Part shown: piece by piece, positions 1 to 6,178 of the stretch
How positions within the stretch are numbered: position 1 is the stretch's first letter
Layout of the letters: each line of letters starts with the position of its first letter
IMG/VR virus record: IMGVR_UViG_3300029157_000022
Reading direction: 5' to 3' (one strand)
Source: a virus
Taxonomy: Duplodnaviria > Heunggongvirae > Uroviricota > Caudoviricetes
Length of the DNA stretch: 8,915 nt
Made by a program: the position numbers and the translations under genes
Notes under the pieces: model-generated
What the model saw: only the letters and a program-made list of their open reading frames with translations
The model's database searches: none
What the model was told of the DNA's origin: nothing

Positions 1-69
1 TCTGAGGCAGCACCTGGCACGGCTGGGACGGAAGTCGCTGTCGTTTTCAAAATCGGTGGAGCTGCATGA
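1..69 (+). CDS. Possible 3' end of an upstream gene running off the left edge (frame 1, ...[22 protein letters not shown], stop TGA 67-69); partial
   Basis: Frame 1 is open from the window edge to TGA at 67-69, with Ala/Gly/Thr/Val-rich codons like the downstream genes. Frame 2 is also open to TAA at 110-112, so the frame is uncertain. Too short to call firmly. Confidence 0.2.
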
Positions 70-136
70 CAAAGTCATCGGGCATTATCTGAACATAAAA
101 CACTATCAATAAGTTGGAGTCATTACCAACAACTGA

Positions 137-549: not shown

Positions 550-1581
550 ATGAATGATTTATCAACATATTTTGGCGTTAATACTGCGGTAGTAACTCCA
601 TTTGCTTATGAGAATGCACTTAATACCCTGATTACTAATCTCGATCTGTTCGATGTGCAATATCATACAGAAAACAGCATTCTTCTTACCGACCTGATTG
701 AGCAGTTTGTGCAGGTAGCCGGGGAAACCTCGCCTTACACTCAAAGCAACTGGAACGCTTCTAAACGTCAGGAATGGTCAAACAAACTTTTCCAGATGAA
801 ACACGTCGGCAGTATTAACGCTGTTACTTCTCGTGACCTGGAACAATACAGCCGCCAATATCCAAACCGTTCTGATGCTATGCTGGTAGCGGTTAATGAT
901 TTCTCTGAGGCTCATTACCGTTCACACGCAAACCGTGTTGAAGTGGATCTGATTACCGCGCTGCTGGGACTGAAAGTTGAATCTGAATATGCCGGACAAG
1001 GTGATCTCGACTTCCTCGACGGTCAGGCTAAAACCACGGTACCCGCTATCGACTTTGCATCGACTACTGTTAACCCGTTCCTTGCTATTCGTAAAGCGGT
1101 GCGCTTACAGAGTGAAAAGCTGGGGTCTGGTCTTGCTGCAAAGCGAACTGGTGTAATTATCTTTGCTGCTGGCGCTGCTGCTGATGGTTTGTCATCTAAC
1201 CCGCTGATCAGTGACATGGTGAAATATGCAGGCGATGCGAGTGCTACGGCCCTGTTTACCCGTATGGTTGATTCTAACCCAGCCTATGACTCTTTCCAGA
1301 TTGGTGGGATCACTGTTATTGATGTGTCAATGTTTCCTGAGATTGTTGCTCACATCGGAGAGAACGGTTTCGCAATTGTCCCGGTAATGGATAAAGCGGC
1401 ACAGTGTTACCAGCTTCATAGCGGCGTTGGTGTGCGTCATGCTGAGTTAGGTCAAGATGCCGTGTTGCATCACCAATATCTAATCAAGGATGAATTCCAA
1501 TTCCCATCTGTGGTTACTGAGACATCTTATCTGCCAGTAAACAACATTCCGCAAGCTATCATCTTCGGATCTGCTGCGTAA
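550..1581 (+). CDS. Hypothetical protein, 343 aa; Ala/Val/Thr/Ser/Asn-rich, candidate major structural (capsid-like) protein, unverified
   Basis: Long ORF (ATG 550, TAA 1579-1581) with a strong RBS and a 14-nt gap after gene 1. The size and small-upstream-partner arrangement resemble decoration/major-capsid gene pairs. No catalytic motif recognised. Confidence 0.85.
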   Translation: MNDLSTYFGVNTAVVTPFAYENALNTLITNLDLFDVQYHTENSILLTDLIEQFVQVAGETSPYTQSNWNASKRQEWSNKLFQMKHVGSINAVTSRDLEQYSRQYPNRSDAMLVAVNDFSEAHYRSHANRVEVDLITALLGLKVESEYAGQGDLDFLDGQAKTTVPAIDFASTTVNPFLAIRKAVRLQSEKLGSGLAAKRTGVIIFAAGAAADGLSSNPLISDMVKYAGDASATALFTRMVDSNPAYDSFQIGGITVIDVSMFPEIVAHIGENGFAIVPVMDKAAQCYQLHSGVGVRHAELGQDAVLHHQYLIKDEFQFPSVVTETSYLPVNNIPQAIIFGSAA

Positions 1582-1611: not shown

Positions 1612-1734
1612 GGAAAATAATGGTAAAGGGATTAACTAACCTGTAGGCGCAAATACAGTAACGAATCTCTTTGCCCTTTTTGTTTTTCTACTGTCTACAA
1701 ACCCAAATAAAAATATATATGTGAGAGAAAACCA

Positions 1735-1932
1735 ATGAATACAGAAAATTCACAGGCATTAATTCTTAAATCTGTAAAAGAACTGGCAGCTATTAGCGAT
1801 GACTCAATAATCAATGTCAGTGCCTTATGCAGAATGCTTTCAATTGATGCAAATAATGTGCGTCAGCGTGTCTTTCAGACTGGATGTAGCACTTTCGAAG
1901 CAATCCAATATTATTGCTCTAAAAAACAATAA
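1735..1932 (+). CDS. Small hypothetical protein, 65 aa; possible helix-turn-helix-like segment
   Basis: ORF with ATG at 1735 and TAA at 1930-1932, preceded by a weak purine-rich RBS (GAGAGAAA). The segment VSALCRMLSIDANNVRQRV loosely fits a helix-turn-helix pattern. The gene is short, so less certain. Confidence 0.5.
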   Translation: MNTENSQALILKSVKELAAISDDSIINVSALCRMLSIDANNVRQRVFQTGCSTFEAIQYYCSKKQ

Positions 1933-1966: not shown

Positions 1967-3808
1967 ATGTTAGAGCTAAACGTGGCACGCCTCTCGAACG
2001 TTGTCACCTTCGAAGTTAACCGACCATCATTAGAGAAAGCAAAAGCAGAAGTAGAAAAACTTCGTAAACAAATGGCGGCGGTGAAAGATATAGAATTGCG
2101 TGTTAAGACACATAAACAATCAACCGCTAAAGCAAAAAAAGACGTAGACGATATTGCTAAAAAGCAAGCACAGGCTGATAAAGCTAATGCTAAAGCACAA
2201 TTAGCCGCTCAACGTGTAGTTGCAAGAGAACAAAAAGCCCTGGCAGCACGCAAAGAGAAGGCAGAATTAAAGCTTTTAGACGTTGGATCAAGCATTAGTG
2301 CAATGCACCGTCTTTCTGTAGCGGAACAATATAAAGCTATTGCACAGGCTAGAGAAATTGCCCTCCAATATGAAAGAGGAGCTATTAGTCTGGCACGTAT
2401 GAATAGCCAAATGAAACGCCTACAACAGCAACAACGTAAGATTAATGGCAATCGTAACGCTCACGCTAAAGCCTATGCACCTGTTAAGGGTAGCGGGAGT
2501 ATTGGCGGCGGTGCTGCGGCTGTTATGCTGGGTGGCTTAGGCGCTGGCGCTACGTATATGGCTATGAGCAAAGCCTCTGAATTTGTTACTAACAGCTTTG
2601 CGAATGCTGAAACGCTGGGTGAATTGTATAGCCGTGCGAAGCTGGGCGGTGTAGACGTTAACCAGATGAACAATATTGAACAATGGGCTTATAAAAACGG
2701 CGTTGATTCAATGATGGGCGAACAAGGTAAACGTAAGTATCTCGATCAGATGAAAGATGTACGGGAGAAGGCTACTAAATCTTATGATGAGGCTGAATAT
2801 GTAGTTGATAAGAAAACTGGTAAAGGAGAATGGAAGGGCGGCGATAGCGGCATCAATACTTTAATGAATGAAGGATTCCTAACTAAAAAGGATCTAAAAG
2901 ACTTTGCTGATAATCCGGCTGGTCTGGTTAGTAAAGCAGTTCAGGGAATGGTAGCTAAAGGCTATTCAGATGCACAAATCGGTAGTCGTCTGGAAGATCT
3001 GGCTGATGATTTGATGCTCACCTCTAAATACTGGACACGCTCCGCTAAAGAAGTGGAACAATCAGCACGAGAACAACGAGAATCAGGGCGCTGGGTAACG
3101 CAGGCACAACAGGAAAGCGTTATTAAATTCCGTGAACTGAATAATGCACTTAGTGGGCTTTCTGACTCACAAGGGATCGCCTTTGTTGATGGCTTTATGA
3201 AATCTCTTGATCCGAAAGTGATTGAAGAGTTTAAAAAGAGCATGGTTGCAATGCTGCCAATGTTTACCAAATTAGGCGAGGCTATCGGCGGATTGGTTAA
3301 CGCTGTAATGAAAGCAATCAACTGGCTGATGAAAAACGACGAGAAGACGGCTGCTATTCAAAAGAATTTAGGTGATGCACCGCCACTGTCTAACGAAGGA
3401 ATGAAGCAGAATCTTTCTAATCTCACTCCTAACCAATATAAAGGCGCTGGCACCGGAACAACTAAGCCAGATAACAGCAATTCCCTGGTTAACACTATTA
3501 AAGGCTGGTTTACGCCAGAAGAGACGGTAGGCGGGGCGCAGGCTGTAAATCAATACACTCTCGAAGGACAAAACATTGCAAATCTGAAACAGAGTGCAGC
3601 ACAACAAGCTATCAAGACTCCTTCTTACACCTTTGCACCTGTTATTAACTTCAATCCAGAATTACAAGTAAATGCAGAAGTGCCGCTAACTATCGAATCA
3701 GACACCGGACGATTGAGCGAATTTATCGACTTCAAATCAAAGGCATCTTCCGCTGAGTTTAGCAAGCTATTAACGCTGGGTGTTATGTCAGGCGGGTCAA
3801 CCTATTAA
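1967..3808 (+). CDS. Hypothetical 613 aa protein: N-terminal Lys/Ala/Gln-rich coiled coil, glycine-zipper hydrophobic segment (aa 175-200), then a roughly 400 aa C-terminal region of unknown function
   Basis: ORF with ATG at 1967 and TAA at 3806-3808; RBS AGGGAAA at 1952-1958. Residues about 20-165 are heptad-like and charged (KAKAEVEKLRKQ...AKKQAQADKANAKAQLAAQ). Residues 175-200 read GSGSIGGGAAAVMLGGLGAGATYMAM (nt 2489-2566). Confidence 0.9.
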   Translation: MLELNVARLSNVVTFEVNRPSLEKAKAEVEKLRKQMAAVKDIELRVKTHKQSTAKAKKDVDDIAKKQAQADKANAKAQLAAQRVVAREQKALAARKEKAELKLLDVGSSISAMHRLSVAEQYKAIAQAREIALQYERGAISLARMNSQMKRLQQQQRKINGNRNAHAKAYAPVKGSGSIGGGAAAVMLGGLGAGATYMAMSKASEFVTNSFANAETLGELYSRAKLGGVDVNQMNNIEQWAYKNGVDSMMGEQGKRKYLDQMKDVREKATKSYDEAEYVVDKKTGKGEWKGGDSGINTLMNEGFLTKKDLKDFADNPAGLVSKAVQGMVAKGYSDAQIGSRLEDLADDLMLTSKYWTRSAKEVEQSAREQRESGRWVTQAQQESVIKFRELNNALSGLSDSQGIAFVDGFMKSLDPKVIEEFKKSMVAMLPMFTKLGEAIGGLVNAVMKAINWLMKNDEKTAAIQKNLGDAPPLSNEGMKQNLSNLTPNQYKGAGTGTTKPDNSNSLVNTIKGWFTPEETVGGAQAVNQYTLEGQNIANLKQSAAQQAIKTPSYTFAPVINFNPELQVNAEVPLTIESDTGRLSEFIDFKSKASSAEFSKLLTLGVMSGGSTY

Positions 3809-3855: not shown

Positions 3856-4533
3856 ATGGCAATGGGTCCGTTAACCATTGGTCGCCCGACTGAGGCGAAA
3901 ATCAACAGCACAAGCAACGATAGCAACGGTAGAACAACTAAAGGGGGTAACGGCTTTGCGATCATTACCTCTAACCTCGGCAGTGGTGCAAATGCTGCTT
4001 ACAATGACTACCAGGCATTATCATTTGATAGCGTGGAATCGACGAAAGTTAGCCGAAATGCAGACGTTACAAGCTATGCCGTCGAATCAGGATCAGAAGT
4101 TAGTGATCATGTTCAAATACGGAATAACAAGTTCACATTACAAGGGCGTATCTCTGAAACCGTATTGAAGCTCAATCCCGATATGATTAAGAATGCGGGA
4201 ATTAACGGCAATCGACGTATGCTTATGCTTGAATACCTAAATCAGTTGATGGACAGTCGCCAACCTTTCCTACTTGTCACTGAGTTAAAAAATTATGACA
4301 ACGTTGTGTTAGTTGGCATGTCTTACGCAGAAGAAGCAAGCGAAAGCCTATTGTTTACTCTTGATTTTGAGCAAATCCGTCTTGTCTCTAAAGCAACTAC
4401 AAGCGCAATTGCGGTAAAAACAGCACCAAATAAATCTGTAGGGGGACAGGTTAAAATGCAGGTAAATACAACAGAACAGAAAAATCAAAAAAGCCCAGGG
4501 CAAGACGTTGTAACGCCAGTATTTAAACAATAG
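3856..4533 (+). CDS. Hypothetical protein, 225 aa; Ser/Thr/Asn/Gly-rich N-terminal region and Lys/Gln-rich C-terminal tail
   Basis: ORF with ATG at 3856 and TAG at 4531-4533; RBS AAGGA at 3842-3846. Last gene of the co-directional module. Confidence 0.8.
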   Translation: MAMGPLTIGRPTEAKINSTSNDSNGRTTKGGNGFAIITSNLGSGANAAYNDYQALSFDSVESTKVSRNADVTSYAVESGSEVSDHVQIRNNKFTLQGRISETVLKLNPDMIKNAGINGNRRMLMLEYLNQLMDSRQPFLLVTELKNYDNVVLVGMSYAEEASESLLFTLDFEQIRLVSKATTSAIAVKTAPNKSVGGQVKMQVNTTEQKNQKSPGQDVVTPVFKQ

Positions 4534-4613: not shown

Positions 4614-5891
4614 CTACAGCGTTGTTTTACGCCTTAAATTTGATTTTTTATTGATTGATAAGCCTTTCTCTATTTCAGGGTAGCGTAAAAGCTCAATATA
4701 TTTTTTAAGCTCTACTGGAGAAGCTGCATTCTTGCTATATGTGCGGAATGTTTCTGTATTGCCGCGTGTATGGCCCAGGAGAAGGGCGATCCTGTCTTCT
4801 GGAATTTGATTTCGATCAAGAAGCTGTGCTACTCCGTGTCTCAGAGAATGAAACACTTTCCTTTCTGTTCCCTTTTCCCCTAAAGCCTTTCGTTTAGCTC
4901 TTGTAAATCTCTGCGTATGCCACGTGGAACGTTTACCATCAGCACGCTCTGTAATGCTGGCGTGATAGAACAAAAAGCCATTGTGAGGCTTTTCACGCAG
5001 CGACAACACCAACGGAGTGATAAGGCTATGTACAGGCACAACACGTGCCGCTGCTTTCGTCTTTCCCTGTGTGATTTCAAAACACAGCACACCTTCGATC
5101 TCTTTCACATCGTCTATTGTGAGACTTGCTATCTCATTGATCCGCATACCTGTATAGGCACCGATAAGACACAAAGCCATCATTTCTTTGTTTTCTGCTG
5201 AATCACCGGAAAATACTTGCAACACCTGCAATAGCTCTTTGTTAGAAAATGCCTCGTAGCTCTCTCTACTTTGTGCCACATCAAGCCTATGCCCTCGCCA
5301 GGGGGAGAGCGCCCTTTCTGGCGCATCGTGGTAACGTGATGAAGCTAATTCCCATAGCTGGGCCATTGGGCTGATATAATTTGCAATTGATTGTTGTGAA
5401 AGGGTTTTTTGCATGTGTTCAATCCAGCCTGTAACAGTGGTGCGGCTTACATCTTGCAATGCAATATCAGGCTTTTTACGGTAGGAGAGAAACATCTCTA
5501 CCGCTTTTCTTGCCTTAGCTAAAGTGGCTGGCTTATTCTTCGTGCTGTTAATTGTCAGGTAGATTTCAAGAATTTTAAGCAATGACGGACACGAAGACGC
5601 TGTATCTTGCATTCTGGTAGCTGTTTTGGCGTATTTAGCCTTACTGCGTAACAGTTCCAGCGTGTTTTCTATTGTGCTGTTTACAGGGGCGACACTCTCC
5701 CGTAAGCAATGGTATTCATCTGCAATCTGATCACGCTTTCTACGTGCAACACGAAGATTACTTGTGTGTAGACTTCTGACAAACGTCCTTTTTCCTTCAA
5801 AAAAGGGCTGCATATACACAGGCAGCGTTATCCTTAAATAGTAGTTACCGTAAGAATCACAGATTAAGTATTGGTTAGGCTTGTATCTCAT
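4614..5891 (-). CDS. int: Tyrosine recombinase / phage-type integrase (425 aa from the RBS-supported ATG; the open frame continues to a TTG at 5978)
   Basis: Catalytic-domain signatures are present: GMRINE (box I Arg), HSLRHG (His-x-x-Arg), LLGH, and a terminal Tyr in FRTYSK. The ATG at 5889-5891 has GGAG 5 nt upstream on the minus strand. The gene lies beside a tRNA 3' fragment. Confidence 0.9.
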   Translation of the reverse strand: MRYKPNQYLICDSYGNYYLRITLPVYMQPFFEGKRTFVRSLHTSNLRVARRKRDQIADEYHCLRESVAPVNSTIENTLELLRSKAKYAKTATRMQDTASSCPSLLKILEIYLTINSTKNKPATLAKARKAVEMFLSYRKKPDIALQDVSRTTVTGWIEHMQKTLSQQSIANYISPMAQLWELASSRYHDAPERALSPWRGHRLDVAQSRESYEAFSNKELLQVLQVFSGDSAENKEMMALCLIGAYTGMRINEIASLTIDDVKEIEGVLCFEITQGKTKAAARVVPVHSLITPLVLSLREKPHNGFLFYHASITERADGKRSTWHTQRFTRAKRKALGEKGTERKVFHSLRHGVAQLLDRNQIPEDRIALLLGHTRGNTETFRTYSKNAASPVELKKYIELLRYPEIEKGLSINKKSNLRRKTTL

Positions 5892-5985
5892 AAAATCTCC
5901 GGCTAAAGTGTCGGAGCGTTTGTAATGTGAAAATTGATTGTGATGCATAGAAAATGATGATTTTTCTATAAGATTCAATCAATTA

Positions 5986-6052
5986 GTAATGGTCGTAGGT
6001 GATGGCATTAACACGAGATTAATCGAGTGTTTTACTCCTATTATCGGCACCA
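5986..6052 (+). other. tRNA-Thr-like remnant / attachment-site core: 3'-terminal 19 nt ACTCCTATTATCGGCACCA (6034-6052) plus upstream tRNA-like pieces GTAAT and GGTCGTAGGT (5986-6000); not an intact tRNA
   Basis: The segment ends in the CCA acceptor with a T-arm-like ACTCC. As I recall it, this matches the 3' end of E. coli tRNA-Thr(CGU) thrW. No complete cloverleaf can be formed, since the 5' half is replaced by unrelated sequence. Confidence 0.5.
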
Positions 6053-6178
6053 TTAAAATCAAAGAGTTACCCCATATTTAAATACACCACGTTTCCTCCT
6101 GTGCCGTATTTGTGCCATTGTAACCTTGGCAATTCATCAAAATACTGTTCTGACATCAGGCAGTGCAGGTGCAGACAT

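What the first reader, a model, noticed from the sequence alone, without database searches (positions are those of the whole stretch)
1967..3808. 613 aa protein with Lys/Ala-rich coiled coil followed by a glycine-zipper hydrophobic segment
Residues about 20-165 are a long charged heptad-like helix. Residues 175-200 (GSGSIGGGAAAVMLGGLGAGATYMAM, nt 2489-2566) form a small-residue-rich hydrophobic stretch typical of glycine-zipper membrane helices. The remaining roughly 400 aa have no motif I recognise. This combination occurs in phage tape-measure, ejection and pilot proteins and in some membrane-targeting effectors. Here there is no adjacent tail-tube gene, so its role is open; it could be a membrane-active effector or a DNA-conduit-type protein.
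Basis: seen in the sequence. Interest (0 to 1): 0.6.

Follow-up and report, generated by a model that had tools for sequence, protein, structure and literature searches.

The report
Tape-measure gene on satellite-like island
The 613-residue protein is a full-length relative of the tail tape-measure protein of phi92-type E. coli phages, but it sits on a small mobile island that carries only a few virion genes, so it most likely lets a phage parasite build part of its own tail from a helper phage's parts.

Summary
The ORF (1967-3808, 613 aa) is real and intact. [quoted passage not shown]

The next gene (3856-4533) is a homologue of the phi92 tube initiator gp135 (E 5e-53). The 343-aa gene upstream is a divergent major capsid protein.

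These genes lie on a 12.9-kb island at thrW. The island has an integrase, att repeats, a replication-initiator-like gene and iterons. It has no sheath, tube, chaperone, hub, portal or terminase genes.

The same module occurs at three or more chromosomal sites with different integrases. It also occurs as integrase-less circular contigs of about 13.2-13.8 kb in independent samples.

The gene is under purifying selection (dN/dS about 0.12). Its length is tightly held at 609-621 aa, against 646-662 aa in the phages.

Best reading: a satellite-encoded TMP that, with its tube initiator, replaces the helper's counterparts to make chimeric tails, as shown in 2026 for Vibrio PLE satellites. The helical N-terminal region and the Gly/Ala-rich hydrophobic segment are confirmed as family features. 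A heptad coiled coil and a classical transmembrane helix are not. The membrane-effector idea is not supported.

The parts
1967..3808 (+). 613-aa tape-measure protein (TMP) homologue; the finding itself
   Evidence: PHROG 16051 'tail length tape measure protein', E 9.9e-31. PDB 21vq_V Phi92_gp134, E 4.6e-21. Collinear BLASTP with the phage PHB05 TMP, 28% identity over residues 84-455 plus 39% over the N-terminal 33 residues. dN/dS 0.12-0.13.
1967..2023 (+). N-terminal motif (residues 1-19, MLELNVARLSNVVTFEVNR), shared by phage and island TMPs
   Evidence: Consensus MxLxINxSKIxNxVTFxVD across 30 homologues. In island variant L018 the first 25 residues are 23/25 identical to the PHB05 phage TMP, although the whole proteins are about 27% identical. 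The family profile also matches the N-terminus of another myophage TMP, 9cuy_W.
2024..2461 (+). Lys/Ala-rich long helical region (residues 20-165)
   Evidence: Composition. AlphaFold helices 19-37, 42-111, 118-136 and 142-169 at high pLDDT. Heptad periodicity not significant. This region is shorter than in the phage TMPs, which carry an extra Pro/Gly-rich insert and a longer Arg/Glu-rich helix.
2489..2566 (+). Gly/Ala-rich moderately hydrophobic segment (residues 175-200)
   Evidence: Kyte-Doolittle 19-residue maximum 1.28. Conserved in position in 28/30 homologues. Low AlphaFold confidence.
2582..3160 (+). Conserved central domain (residues 206-398; NGVDS...DxxKDVRE...GxWKGGD...LxDDL)
   Evidence: Holds all invariant columns but one. 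dN/dS 0.06. pLDDT 80-95, helical with a beta-hairpin at 277-290. No Pfam family and no solved-structure fold match.
3242..3298 (+). Second hydrophobic stretch (residues 426-444, MVAMLPMFTKLGEAIGGLV)
   Evidence: Kyte-Doolittle 19-residue maximum 1.34, the global maximum of this protein. Conserved LGxxxGxL motif.
3674..3805 (+). C-terminal segment (residues about 570-613), aligned with the part of phi92 gp134 that sits inside the baseplate
   Evidence: Aligns with the phage C-terminus V.V.PD...LTL...S. In phi92 only residues 631-656 are resolved, in the baseplate interior (PMC13450770).
3856..4533 (+). 225-aa tube-initiator (Dit-like) protein, likely partner of the TMP
   Evidence: Pfam PF21821 Dit_like, E 1.4e-27. 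PDB 21vq_N Phi92_gp135, E 4.9e-53; 9cuy_K 'tube initiator protein'. 53% identical to Phapecoctavirus proteins.
1735..1932 (+). 65-aa protein always found just upstream of the island TMP gene; looks like a helix-turn-helix protein; function unknown
   Evidence: Present at this position in 12 of the 13 island loci checked by ORF list (63-93 aa; none of 55 aa or more was listed in L037) and aligned. No Pfam or PHROG match. No homology to the small ORF that precedes the TMP gene in the phage.
550..1581 (+). 343-aa divergent major capsid protein
   Evidence: PHROG 29 major head protein, E 3.4e-5. A profile of island homologues hits the Phi92_gp124 MCP at E 2.1e-15 and other capsid proteins. No tblastn match in 50,697 phage records.
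152..535 (+). 127-aa protein in the position and size of the phage head-decoration/cement gene
   Evidence: Synteny with the PHB05 decoration-MCP pair. Homology is not significant, so this is assigned by position only.
4614..5978 (-). Tyrosine integrase of the island (RefSeq homologue annotated as 425 aa, i.e. 4614-5891)
   Evidence: Pfam Phage_integrase, E 2.9e-17, plus DUF6538 and a SAM-like domain. RefSeq annotation.
6027..6054 (+). attR: repeat of the 3' end of tRNA-Thr (thrW); right boundary of the island
   Evidence: 28-nt direct repeat, 89% identical, spacing 12,871 nt in strain STEC316. Core ACTCCTATTATCGGCACCAT at window 6034-6053.

Best explanation
The gene encodes a tail tape-measure protein of the phi92/Stephanstirmvirinae type. 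It belongs to a roughly 13-kb phage-satellite-like mobile element, not to a phage.

Proposed mechanism, by analogy with Vibrio PLE satellites: when a phi92-like virulent myophage infects the cell, the island is expressed and replicates. Its TMP, as a trimer, and its tube initiator, as a hexamer, take the place of the helper's gp134 and gp135 equivalents on the helper's hub. The helper's tube and sheath then polymerise around the island's TMP. The resulting chimeric tail joins a capsid built from the island's own capsid protein.

Because the island TMP is about 46 residues shorter than the phage TMP, its tails should be about 5-7 nm (one to two tube rings) shorter. On this model the long N-terminal helices are the ruler. 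The C-terminus docks in the baseplate. The Gly/Ala-rich hydrophobic segments are generic TMP features that may act on the membrane after ejection.

Shown here: homology, gene context, mobility of the element family, purifying selection and the length constraint. Inferred: helper dependence, incorporation into tails and the effect on tail length.
For: 1. Full-length collinear homology with a TMP located by cryo-EM: PDB Phi92_gp134 E 4.6e-21, PHROG 16051 E 1e-30, N-terminus to C-terminus alignment. The best matches among predicted viral structures are tape-measure proteins.

2. The downstream gene is a homologue of the phi92 tube initiator gp135 (E 5e-53). [quoted passage not shown]

3. Context. 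The 12.9-kb island is bounded by att repeats at thrW and has an integrase, a replication-initiator-like gene and 22-bp iterons. About 35 island loci share the order decoration-like, MCP, small ORF, TMP, (tube initiator), integrase. None has sheath, tube, chaperone, hub, spike or neck genes. All 16 true phage loci carry whatever part of that structural block their (often short) contig spans.

4. Mobility. The same module sits at thrW, at yciQ/rluB and at a tRNA-Gly site, each with a different integrase. An integrase-less form occurs as stand-alone 13.2-13.8-kb contigs in at least six samples. These contigs are permuted relative to one another, and three have 30-nt end overlaps, which indicates circles.

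5. Function is retained. dN/dS is 0.12-0.13 at dS 0.66-0.80. Almost all of 120 sequence clusters are full length, and one is seen on 675 contigs. Island TMP length is 609-621 aa, against 646-662 aa in the phages checked.

6. Precedent. PLE satellites encode their own TMP, chaperone and hub protein and build chimeric tails. The PLE11 TMP is 95 aa shorter and the tail is 10 nm shorter. Deleting tmp cuts transduction by 96-99.9% (PMC12987554).

7. Ties to the helper group. The tube initiator is 48-75% identical to Justusliebigvirus/Phapecoctavirus proteins. The TMP N-terminus is nearly identical to the phage's in some island variants.
Against: There is no experimental evidence, and no helper has been identified.

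Identity to phage TMPs is only about 28%. No tail-assembly chaperone was recognised on the island, whereas PLEs have one. The small upstream ORF looks like a DNA-binding protein rather than a chaperone.

Some island variants lack the tube-initiator gene.

The sample types of the circular contigs are unknown, so packaging into particles is not shown.

In this particular window an IS1 end abuts the structural module at position 127. This copy may be cut off from its upstream regulatory and replication genes.

The shared-promoter search was inconclusive.
Confidence: 0.6

Rival explanations
1. Decoy or interference. The island TMP (with its tube initiator) acts mainly as a dominant-negative competitor that poisons the helper phage's tail assembly. 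On this view it protects the bacterial population and is not a building block of transducing particles. This could also operate alongside the structural role.
For: Satellites commonly interfere with helper assembly. PLE11 targets the helper's TMP through Rta, and tail-assembly interference is a described defence strategy. The island TMP keeps phage-like N- and C-terminal motifs that could engage helper partners.
Against: The tight length constraint (609-621 aa) and the purifying selection along the whole ruler region (dN/dS about 0.1 for residues 20-165) are what a working ruler would show. A mere blocker would not need them. The island also encodes its own capsid protein, which points to particle production. 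No PADLOC defence family matches.
Confidence: 0.2
2. Decaying remnant. The gene is a leftover of a degraded phi92-like prophage and has no current function.
For: The neighbours are a subset of a phage structural operon in phage order. An IS1 end interrupts this copy of the island. RefSeq annotates the genes as hypothetical.
Against: The same reduced gene set recurs at three or more integration sites with different integrases, and also as circular elements. dN/dS is 0.12 and the ORFs are intact in hundreds of assemblies. The island has its own replication module and iterons. phi92-like phages are described as virulent (established knowledge) and have 145-150-kb genomes, so they are unlikely to leave prophages.
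Confidence: 0.05
3. Membrane-active effector or toxin. A coiled-coil stalk delivers a glycine-zipper helix that permeabilises membranes, independently of any tail.
For: There is a Gly/Ala-rich hydrophobic segment and a second hydrophobic stretch. It is established knowledge that TMPs of some siphophages insert into membranes during ejection.
Against: Hydrophobicity is below the usual transmembrane thresholds and the segment is not predicted to be helical. The segment is shared with bona fide phage TMPs. There is full-length homology to a virion protein. No signal peptide or effector or defence family was found.
Confidence: 0.03

Closest known systems
Tape-measure protein gp134 of Escherichia phage phi92 (PDB 21vq chain V; PMC13450770) and its orthologues in Justusliebigvirus/Phapecoctavirus (PHROG 16051)
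   Same: The architecture is collinear: N-terminal MLEIN..VTF.VD motif, long helices, Gly/Ala hydrophobic segment, conserved central domain, second hydrophobic stretch and C-terminal V.V.PD...LTL motif. As in the phage, the gene lies directly upstream of a gp135-type tube-initiator gene.
   Different: Identity is only about 28%. The protein is about 46 residues shorter because it lacks the Pro/Gly-rich insert and part of the Arg/Glu-rich helix. It is encoded on a 13-kb island without sheath, tube, chaperone or hub genes, rather than in a 145-150-kb virulent phage.
TMP/TAC/BhuB tail module of Vibrio cholerae PLE satellites, which build chimeric tails with phage ICP1 (Nature 2026, PMC12987554)
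   Same: A satellite-type element parasitising a virulent myophage. It carries its own, shorter TMP, distantly related to the helper's (about 20-28% identity), plus one baseplate-core protein, and lacks tube, sheath and fibres.
   Different: No sequence relationship was tested. The island has a tyrosine integrase. It encodes a tube initiator rather than a hub protein. No chaperone was recognised. It also encodes its own major capsid protein, whereas PLE remodels ICP1's capsid protein with TcaP (cited). Function here is inferred, not shown.
Capsid-forming PICIs (cf-PICIs), some of which carry putative tmp genes (Extended Data Fig. 10 of PMC12987554)
   Same: A chromosomal island with an integrase, its own capsid protein gene and, in some members, a putative TMP.
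   Different: cf-PICIs are described as carrying a full capsid and packaging module (portal, protease, connectors, small terminase; from my own knowledge). This island has no ORF of portal or protease size and no such family hits. It does have a tube initiator.
Satellite P4 of E. coli
   Same: An 11-13-kb integrative element that can also exist as a plasmid and depends on a myophage for virion parts (established knowledge; P4 features are noted).
   Different: No Sid, Psu, Delta or alpha-primase homologues were found. P4 encodes no capsid protein, TMP or tube initiator.

Membership tests
Phage tail tape-measure protein, phi92 gp134 type (PHROG 16051) | Significant sequence homology to a TMP whose place in the virion is experimentally established | tested here: met
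   PDB 21vq_V Phi92_gp134, E 4.6e-21. PHROG 16051, E 9.9e-31. gp134 is modelled as a trimeric TMP in the phi92 cryo-EM study.
Phage tail tape-measure protein, phi92 gp134 type (PHROG 16051) | Full-length collinearity, not just a shared domain | tested here: met
   The N-terminal 33 residues, the hydrophobic segment, the central domain and the C-terminal motif all align in order with the PHB05 TMP and 28 other homologues.
Phage tail tape-measure protein, phi92 gp134 type (PHROG 16051) | Gene lies between the tail-assembly chaperone gene and the tube-initiator/baseplate-hub genes | tested here: inconclusive
   The downstream tube-initiator gene is present. No chaperone, tube or hub gene is on the island. 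The upstream 65-aa ORF is unrelated to the phage's small ORF.
Phage tail tape-measure protein, phi92 gp134 type (PHROG 16051) | Long, mostly alpha-helical protein whose length is constrained (ruler) | tested here: met
   Helices cover most of residues 19-467 in the AlphaFold model. Island homologues are 609-621 aa despite identity as low as 24-30%.
Phage tail tape-measure protein, phi92 gp134 type (PHROG 16051) | Present as a trimer in the tube lumen and sets tail length | not testable with these tools
   Needs virion proteomics, cryo-EM and tail-length measurements.
Phage satellite that builds chimeric tails (PLE-like in function) | Discrete mobile element with a recombinase and att sites | tested here: met
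   Tyrosine integrase. 28-nt att repeats 12,871 nt apart at thrW. Other integration sites with other integrases.
Phage satellite that builds chimeric tails (PLE-like in function) | Own replication functions | tested here: met
   Either a 208-aa HTH_36 / PHROG 270 replication-initiator-like protein or a 492-aa helicase-like protein. Four 22-bp iterons. These are family matches, not proof of activity.
Phage satellite that builds chimeric tails (PLE-like in function) | Lacks most virion and packaging genes, so it cannot form particles alone | tested here: met
   No sheath, tube, chaperone, hub, spike or neck homologues in about 35 island loci. No other large ORFs on the island.
Phage satellite that builds chimeric tails (PLE-like in function) | Induced, packaged and transduced only with a helper phage; satellite TMP incorporated into particles | not testable with these tools
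   The only indirect hint is the stand-alone circular contigs of 13.2-13.8 kb in independent samples.
Phage satellite that builds chimeric tails (PLE-like in function) | Sequence homology to PLE genes | not tested
Membership of the PLE family itself is therefore not claimed.
Capsid-forming PICI | Own portal, protease/scaffold, head-tail connectors and small terminase | tested here: not met
   No such ORFs or family hits on the island. Only an MCP and a possible decoration protein are present.
P4-like satellite | Sid, Psu, Delta and alpha primase-helicase | tested here: not met
   No matching Pfam or PHROG families among the island proteins.
Glycine-zipper transmembrane protein or membrane effector | A segment hydrophobic enough to be a stable transmembrane helix | tested here: not met
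   Kyte-Doolittle 19-residue maxima are 1.28 and 1.34, below 1.6. The summed Hessa-scale energy is positive. The segment is not helical in the model. Dedicated predictors (DeepTMHMM) were not available.
Coiled coil | Heptad periodicity of hydrophobic residues | tested here: inconclusive
   The long helices are predicted with confidence. The 3.5-residue periodicity over residues 20-165 is no higher than in shuffles. No dedicated coiled-coil predictor was available.

The most novel reading that the evidence does not exclude
The window may hold one member of an undescribed, widespread family of E. coli/Enterobacteriaceae phage satellites that parasitise virulent phi92/rV5-type (Stephanstirmvirinae) myophages. 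These elements would encode their own capsid protein, their own tail ruler and their own tube initiator. They would therefore build both a private small capsid and a chimeric, slightly shorter contractile tail.

The family would include an integrase-less lineage. That lineage would persist either as a 13.6-kb circular episome or as a strictly co-infecting 'virulent' satellite.
Probability: 0.5. Interest if true: 0.8.

Novelty: new variant of a known kind. Interest (0 to 1): 0.65.

Why it matters
Satellite-encoded tape-measure proteins and chimeric tails were first demonstrated only in 2026, for Vibrio cholerae PLEs. That paper noted putative tmp genes in other satellites but did not study them.

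An E. coli counterpart would matter for three reasons:
- Up to about 12% of complete E. coli genomes have at least a partial match to the element. About 2.5% carry the form in this window.
- It would give a tractable model for how a parasite swaps the tail ruler and tube initiator.
- It is relevant to phage therapy, because phi92-, Phapecoctavirus- and Justusliebigvirus-type phages are popular therapeutic candidates. Such islands could block them or hitch-hike on them.

It also gives a name and a testable role to a large set of RefSeq 'hypothetical proteins'.

Tried and rejected
1. Pfam, NCBIfam and PADLOC scans of the 613-aa protein gave no family.

2. Foldseek of the AlphaFold model against the PDB gave no match (best E 0.37). 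The central domain has no solved relative.

3. A Fourier test for heptad periodicity was not significant.

4. I searched for a promoter-like motif shared between phage and island upstream regions (CACTAACA, or TTTATTTGTCT after a terminator). It was not consistent across phages and islands, so I dropped it.

5. Profile comparisons of the 127-aa protein with the phage decoration protein, and of the 65-aa protein with the phage's small pre-TMP ORF, were not significant.

6. The circular element has no megablast match in the phage collection and only two partial matches in the plasmid collection.

7. Rfam and tRNA scans of the window and of the circular element found nothing.

8. I checked whether the island is one of the known thrW occupants of O157 Sakai. 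Sp1 is a degraded lambdoid prophage and Sp2 is P4-like, so it is neither.

9. Five literature searches for a described satellite of phi92/rV5-type phages, or for an E. coli satellite with a TMP, found none. The library is incomplete, so earlier description cannot be excluded.

10. A genome-contig scan with the 30-sequence alignment failed because no stretch was conserved enough, and I did not repeat it.

11. My comparison of N-terminal identity to phage TMPs was spoiled for four phage loci whose genes start with non-ATG codons. I use only the directly read N-termini.
Full report
**What is in the window.** The window is E. coli chromosome. Its right third carries a LysR fragment, paoD and part of paoC. 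Positions 128 to about 6054 belong to a mobile island inserted at tRNA-Thr (thrW).

In strain STEC316 the same island is 98% identical. It is bounded by a 28-nt direct repeat of the tRNA 3' end, with a spacing of 12,871 nt. The right-hand copy lies at window 6027-6054.

The plus-strand island genes in the window are:
- a 127-aa ORF (152-535)
- a 343-aa ORF (550-1581)
- a 65-aa ORF (1735-1932)
- the 613-aa ORF of the finding (1967-3808)
- a 225-aa ORF (3856-4533)

A tyrosine integrase lies on the minus strand at 4614-5978. The first 127 bases of the window differ from the island in other strains and look like the end of IS1.

**Checking the observation.** The ORF, its length and the quoted peptide are as stated.

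Residues 20-165 are Ala/Lys-rich and nearly free of Pro and Gly. AlphaFold2, run on a 35-sequence alignment, predicts helices 19-37, 42-111, 118-136 and 142-169 with pLDDT 85-96. A simple test for heptad periodicity did not exceed shuffles (0.42 of shuffles reach the observed value). 'Long charged helix' therefore stands, but 'coiled coil' is unproven.

The Gly/Ala-rich segment at 175-200 is real. It is the hydropathy maximum in 28 of 30 homologues. It is only moderately hydrophobic (Kyte-Doolittle 1.28; positive summed Hessa energy, scale values from memory) and is modelled with low confidence.

The rest of the protein is not featureless:
- Residues 206-398 form the best-conserved and best-predicted domain.
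- A second hydrophobic stretch lies at 426-444.
- The C-terminus carries a family motif.

**What the protein is.** It matches PHROG 16051 'tail length tape measure protein' (E 1e-30). It matches chain V of PDB 21vq, Phi92_gp134 (E 4.6e-21).

The phi92 cryo-EM paper identifies gp134 as the trimeric tape-measure protein. Its C-terminal residues 631-656 sit inside the baseplate. The same paper identifies gp135 as the hexameric tube initiator, gp124 as the capsid protein and gp123 as the cement protein (PMC13450770).

BLASTP against the TMP of phi92-like phage PHB05 aligns three parts in order: the N-terminal 33 residues (39% identity), the hydrophobic segment and the central domain (28% over residues 84-455). 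A 30-sequence alignment extends the collinearity to the C-terminus.

Foldseek against predicted viral structures returns tape-measure proteins at the top. The PDB holds no fold relative for the central domain.

The downstream 225-aa protein is a clear gp135 homologue (E 4.9e-53; Pfam Dit_like).

A profile of the 343-aa protein and its island relatives hits the phi92 capsid protein gp124 (E 2.1e-15).

The 127-aa protein matches the decoration/cement gene only in position and size.

**The surprise is the context.** In phi92-like phages the order is decoration, capsid, neck genes, sheath, tube, chaperone, small ORF, TMP, tube initiator, hub, spike. The island has only decoration-like, capsid, small ORF, TMP and tube initiator, followed by an integrase.

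I surveyed 55 loci by tblastn:
- About 35 island loci have this reduced set, and none has sheath, tube, chaperone, hub, spike or neck genes.
- All 16 genuine phage loci carry whatever part of that structural block their contig spans; several are short fragments.

Upstream, the islands carry a small serine recombinase, either a replication-initiator-like protein or a helicase-like protein, several small ORFs and 22-bp iterons.

The same module is found at thrW, at yciQ/rluB and next to a tRNA-Gly gene, each time with a different integrase.

An 87%-identical form of the TMP lies on stand-alone contigs of 13.2-13.8 kb from at least six independent samples. These contigs are circularly permuted relative to one another. 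Three of them have the 30-nt end overlap expected of a circle in a k=31 assembly. They lack an integrase and carry other genes instead, one of which in most of them belongs to the Imm superinfection-immunity family.

Of 5,426 complete E. coli genomes, 139 hold at least 80% of the window's island part. In addition, 629 have at least a partial match to the circular form.

**Is the gene functional?** Between the window and the 87% variants, dN/dS is 0.12-0.13 at dS 0.66-0.80. It is 0.06 in the central domain and about 0.1 in the helical region.

Nearly all of the 120 closest sequence clusters are full length.

Island TMPs as little as 24-30% identical to one another still measure 609-621 aa. The phage TMPs I could check measure 646-662 aa. 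The difference lies in a Pro/Gly-rich insert and a longer Arg/Glu-rich helix in the phages.

This is what a working ruler would show. It is not what a relic would show.

**Mechanism proposed.** The closest functional precedent is the 2026 Nature paper on Vibrio cholerae PLE satellites (PMC12987554):
- PLEs encode their own TMP, chaperone and hub protein.
- They use ICP1's tube, sheath and remaining baseplate to make chimeric tails.
- PLE11's TMP is 95 residues shorter and its tails are 10 nm shorter.
- tmp deletions cut transduction by 96-99.9%.
- A PLE11 inhibitor (Rta) blocks the helper's TMP.

By analogy I propose that the 613-aa protein is the island's own tail ruler and that the 225-aa protein is its matching tube initiator. 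Helper tube and sheath would polymerise on them.

At 1.5 Å per residue, 46 fewer residues predict tails about 7 nm shorter than phi92's 24-ring tail, that is one to two tube rings. This is my own inference.

Two observations hint at contacts with helper proteins:
- In some island variants the first 25 residues are 23/25 identical to the phage TMP, although the whole proteins are about 27% identical.
- Islands that lack their own tube initiator keep a phage-like C-terminal end (…SGQSSTGG). The window's lineage, whose tube initiator is only 48% identical to the phage's, has a divergent end (…SGGSTY). The sample is small and not phylogenetically independent, so this is only a lead.

**Rivals.**
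- A decoy role, poisoning helper tail assembly, is compatible with the homology and could coexist with the structural role. It does not explain the length constraint or the island's own capsid gene.
- A decaying prophage remnant is contradicted by recurrence at several sites, by the circular forms, by the replication module and by the purifying selection.
- A free-standing membrane effector is contradicted by full-length homology to a virion protein, by weak hydrophobicity and by the presence of the same segment in phage TMPs.

**Known or new?** The protein is a member of a known family, the phi92-type TMPs. A satellite-encoded TMP is a kind of thing known since 2026.

I found no description of this E. 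coli island family or of any satellite of phi92/rV5-type phages. It is not Sp1 or Sp2, the thrW elements of O157 Sakai.

It fails the gene-content definitions of cf-PICIs and of P4-like satellites. Its relation to PLE could not be tested by sequence.

I therefore rate it a new variant of a known kind. The library searched is incomplete and everything beyond homology and context is inference.

**Caveat for this particular copy.** The IS1 end at window position 127 replaces the island sequence just upstream of the structural genes. No complete E. coli genome in the collection shares this junction. The TMP gene itself is intact, but this copy of the island may be disabled.

Noticed in passing
window 1-127: The window's first 127 bases differ from the island sequence found in other strains. 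They match a sequence present about 10 times per E. coli genome, and from memory they look like the right end of IS1 (…AAGTTGGAGTCATTACC). In this strain the insertion sequence therefore abuts the structural module. No complete genome in the collection shares the junction.
   Followed up: partly
L003 (SRR31140684), L004, L056, L057, L058, L059; whole contigs of 13.2-13.8 kb: An integrase-less lineage of the element occurs as stand-alone, mutually permuted contigs in six independent samples. Three have 30-nt end overlaps, which indicates circles. Where the integrase would be, most of them carry an Imm superinfection-immunity-family gene (PF14373; absent from L057), and all carry ORFs of about 134-150 and 142 aa. 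This lineage could be an episomal or strictly co-infecting form of the satellite.
   Followed up: partly
L001 15434-15543 (island in strain STEC316, upstream of the window's part): Four tandem 22-bp repeats (GGTAGGTCACTGTGAGCTAGGG) lie in a 1.5-kb stretch without annotated genes, between the serine recombinase gene and the replication-initiator-like gene. They look like iterons of a replication origin.
   Followed up: no
window 1735-1932: A 65-aa ORF is conserved immediately upstream of the TMP gene in 12 of the 13 island loci checked (63-93 aa). It has a helix-turn-helix-like core (LLNLxxVCRxLxIDxxxVRQ). It is unrelated to the small ORF at the same position in phi92-like phages. Its role is unknown.
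   Followed up: partly
window 1622-1690: A conserved stem (AAAGGGATTAAC … TCTCTTTGCCCTTTTT) lies between the capsid gene and the 65-aa gene. It is retained in the 87%-divergent circular element and looks like a terminator that splits the structural genes into two units.
   Followed up: no
L006 (strain G3X16-2) and L033-L039: Some island variants have the TMP gene but no tube-initiator gene. Their TMP C-termini end in SGQSSTGG, like the phage TMP. Variants with a divergent tube initiator of their own have a divergent TMP C-terminus. This may reflect co-adaptation of the two proteins.
   Followed up: partly
window 550-1581: The island's capsid protein is very divergent. It has no tblastn match in 50,697 phage records. 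It is recognised only through a profile (phi92 gp124, E 2e-15). Island lineages carry at least two capsid-protein types that are only 17-20% identical to each other.
   Followed up: partly
one search hit list (MG065639 and others): Several records named 'Campylobacter phage' (146 kb) carry phi92-like TMP and tube-initiator genes almost identical to those of E. coli phages. These may be mislabelled hosts or contaminating coliphages.
   Followed up: no
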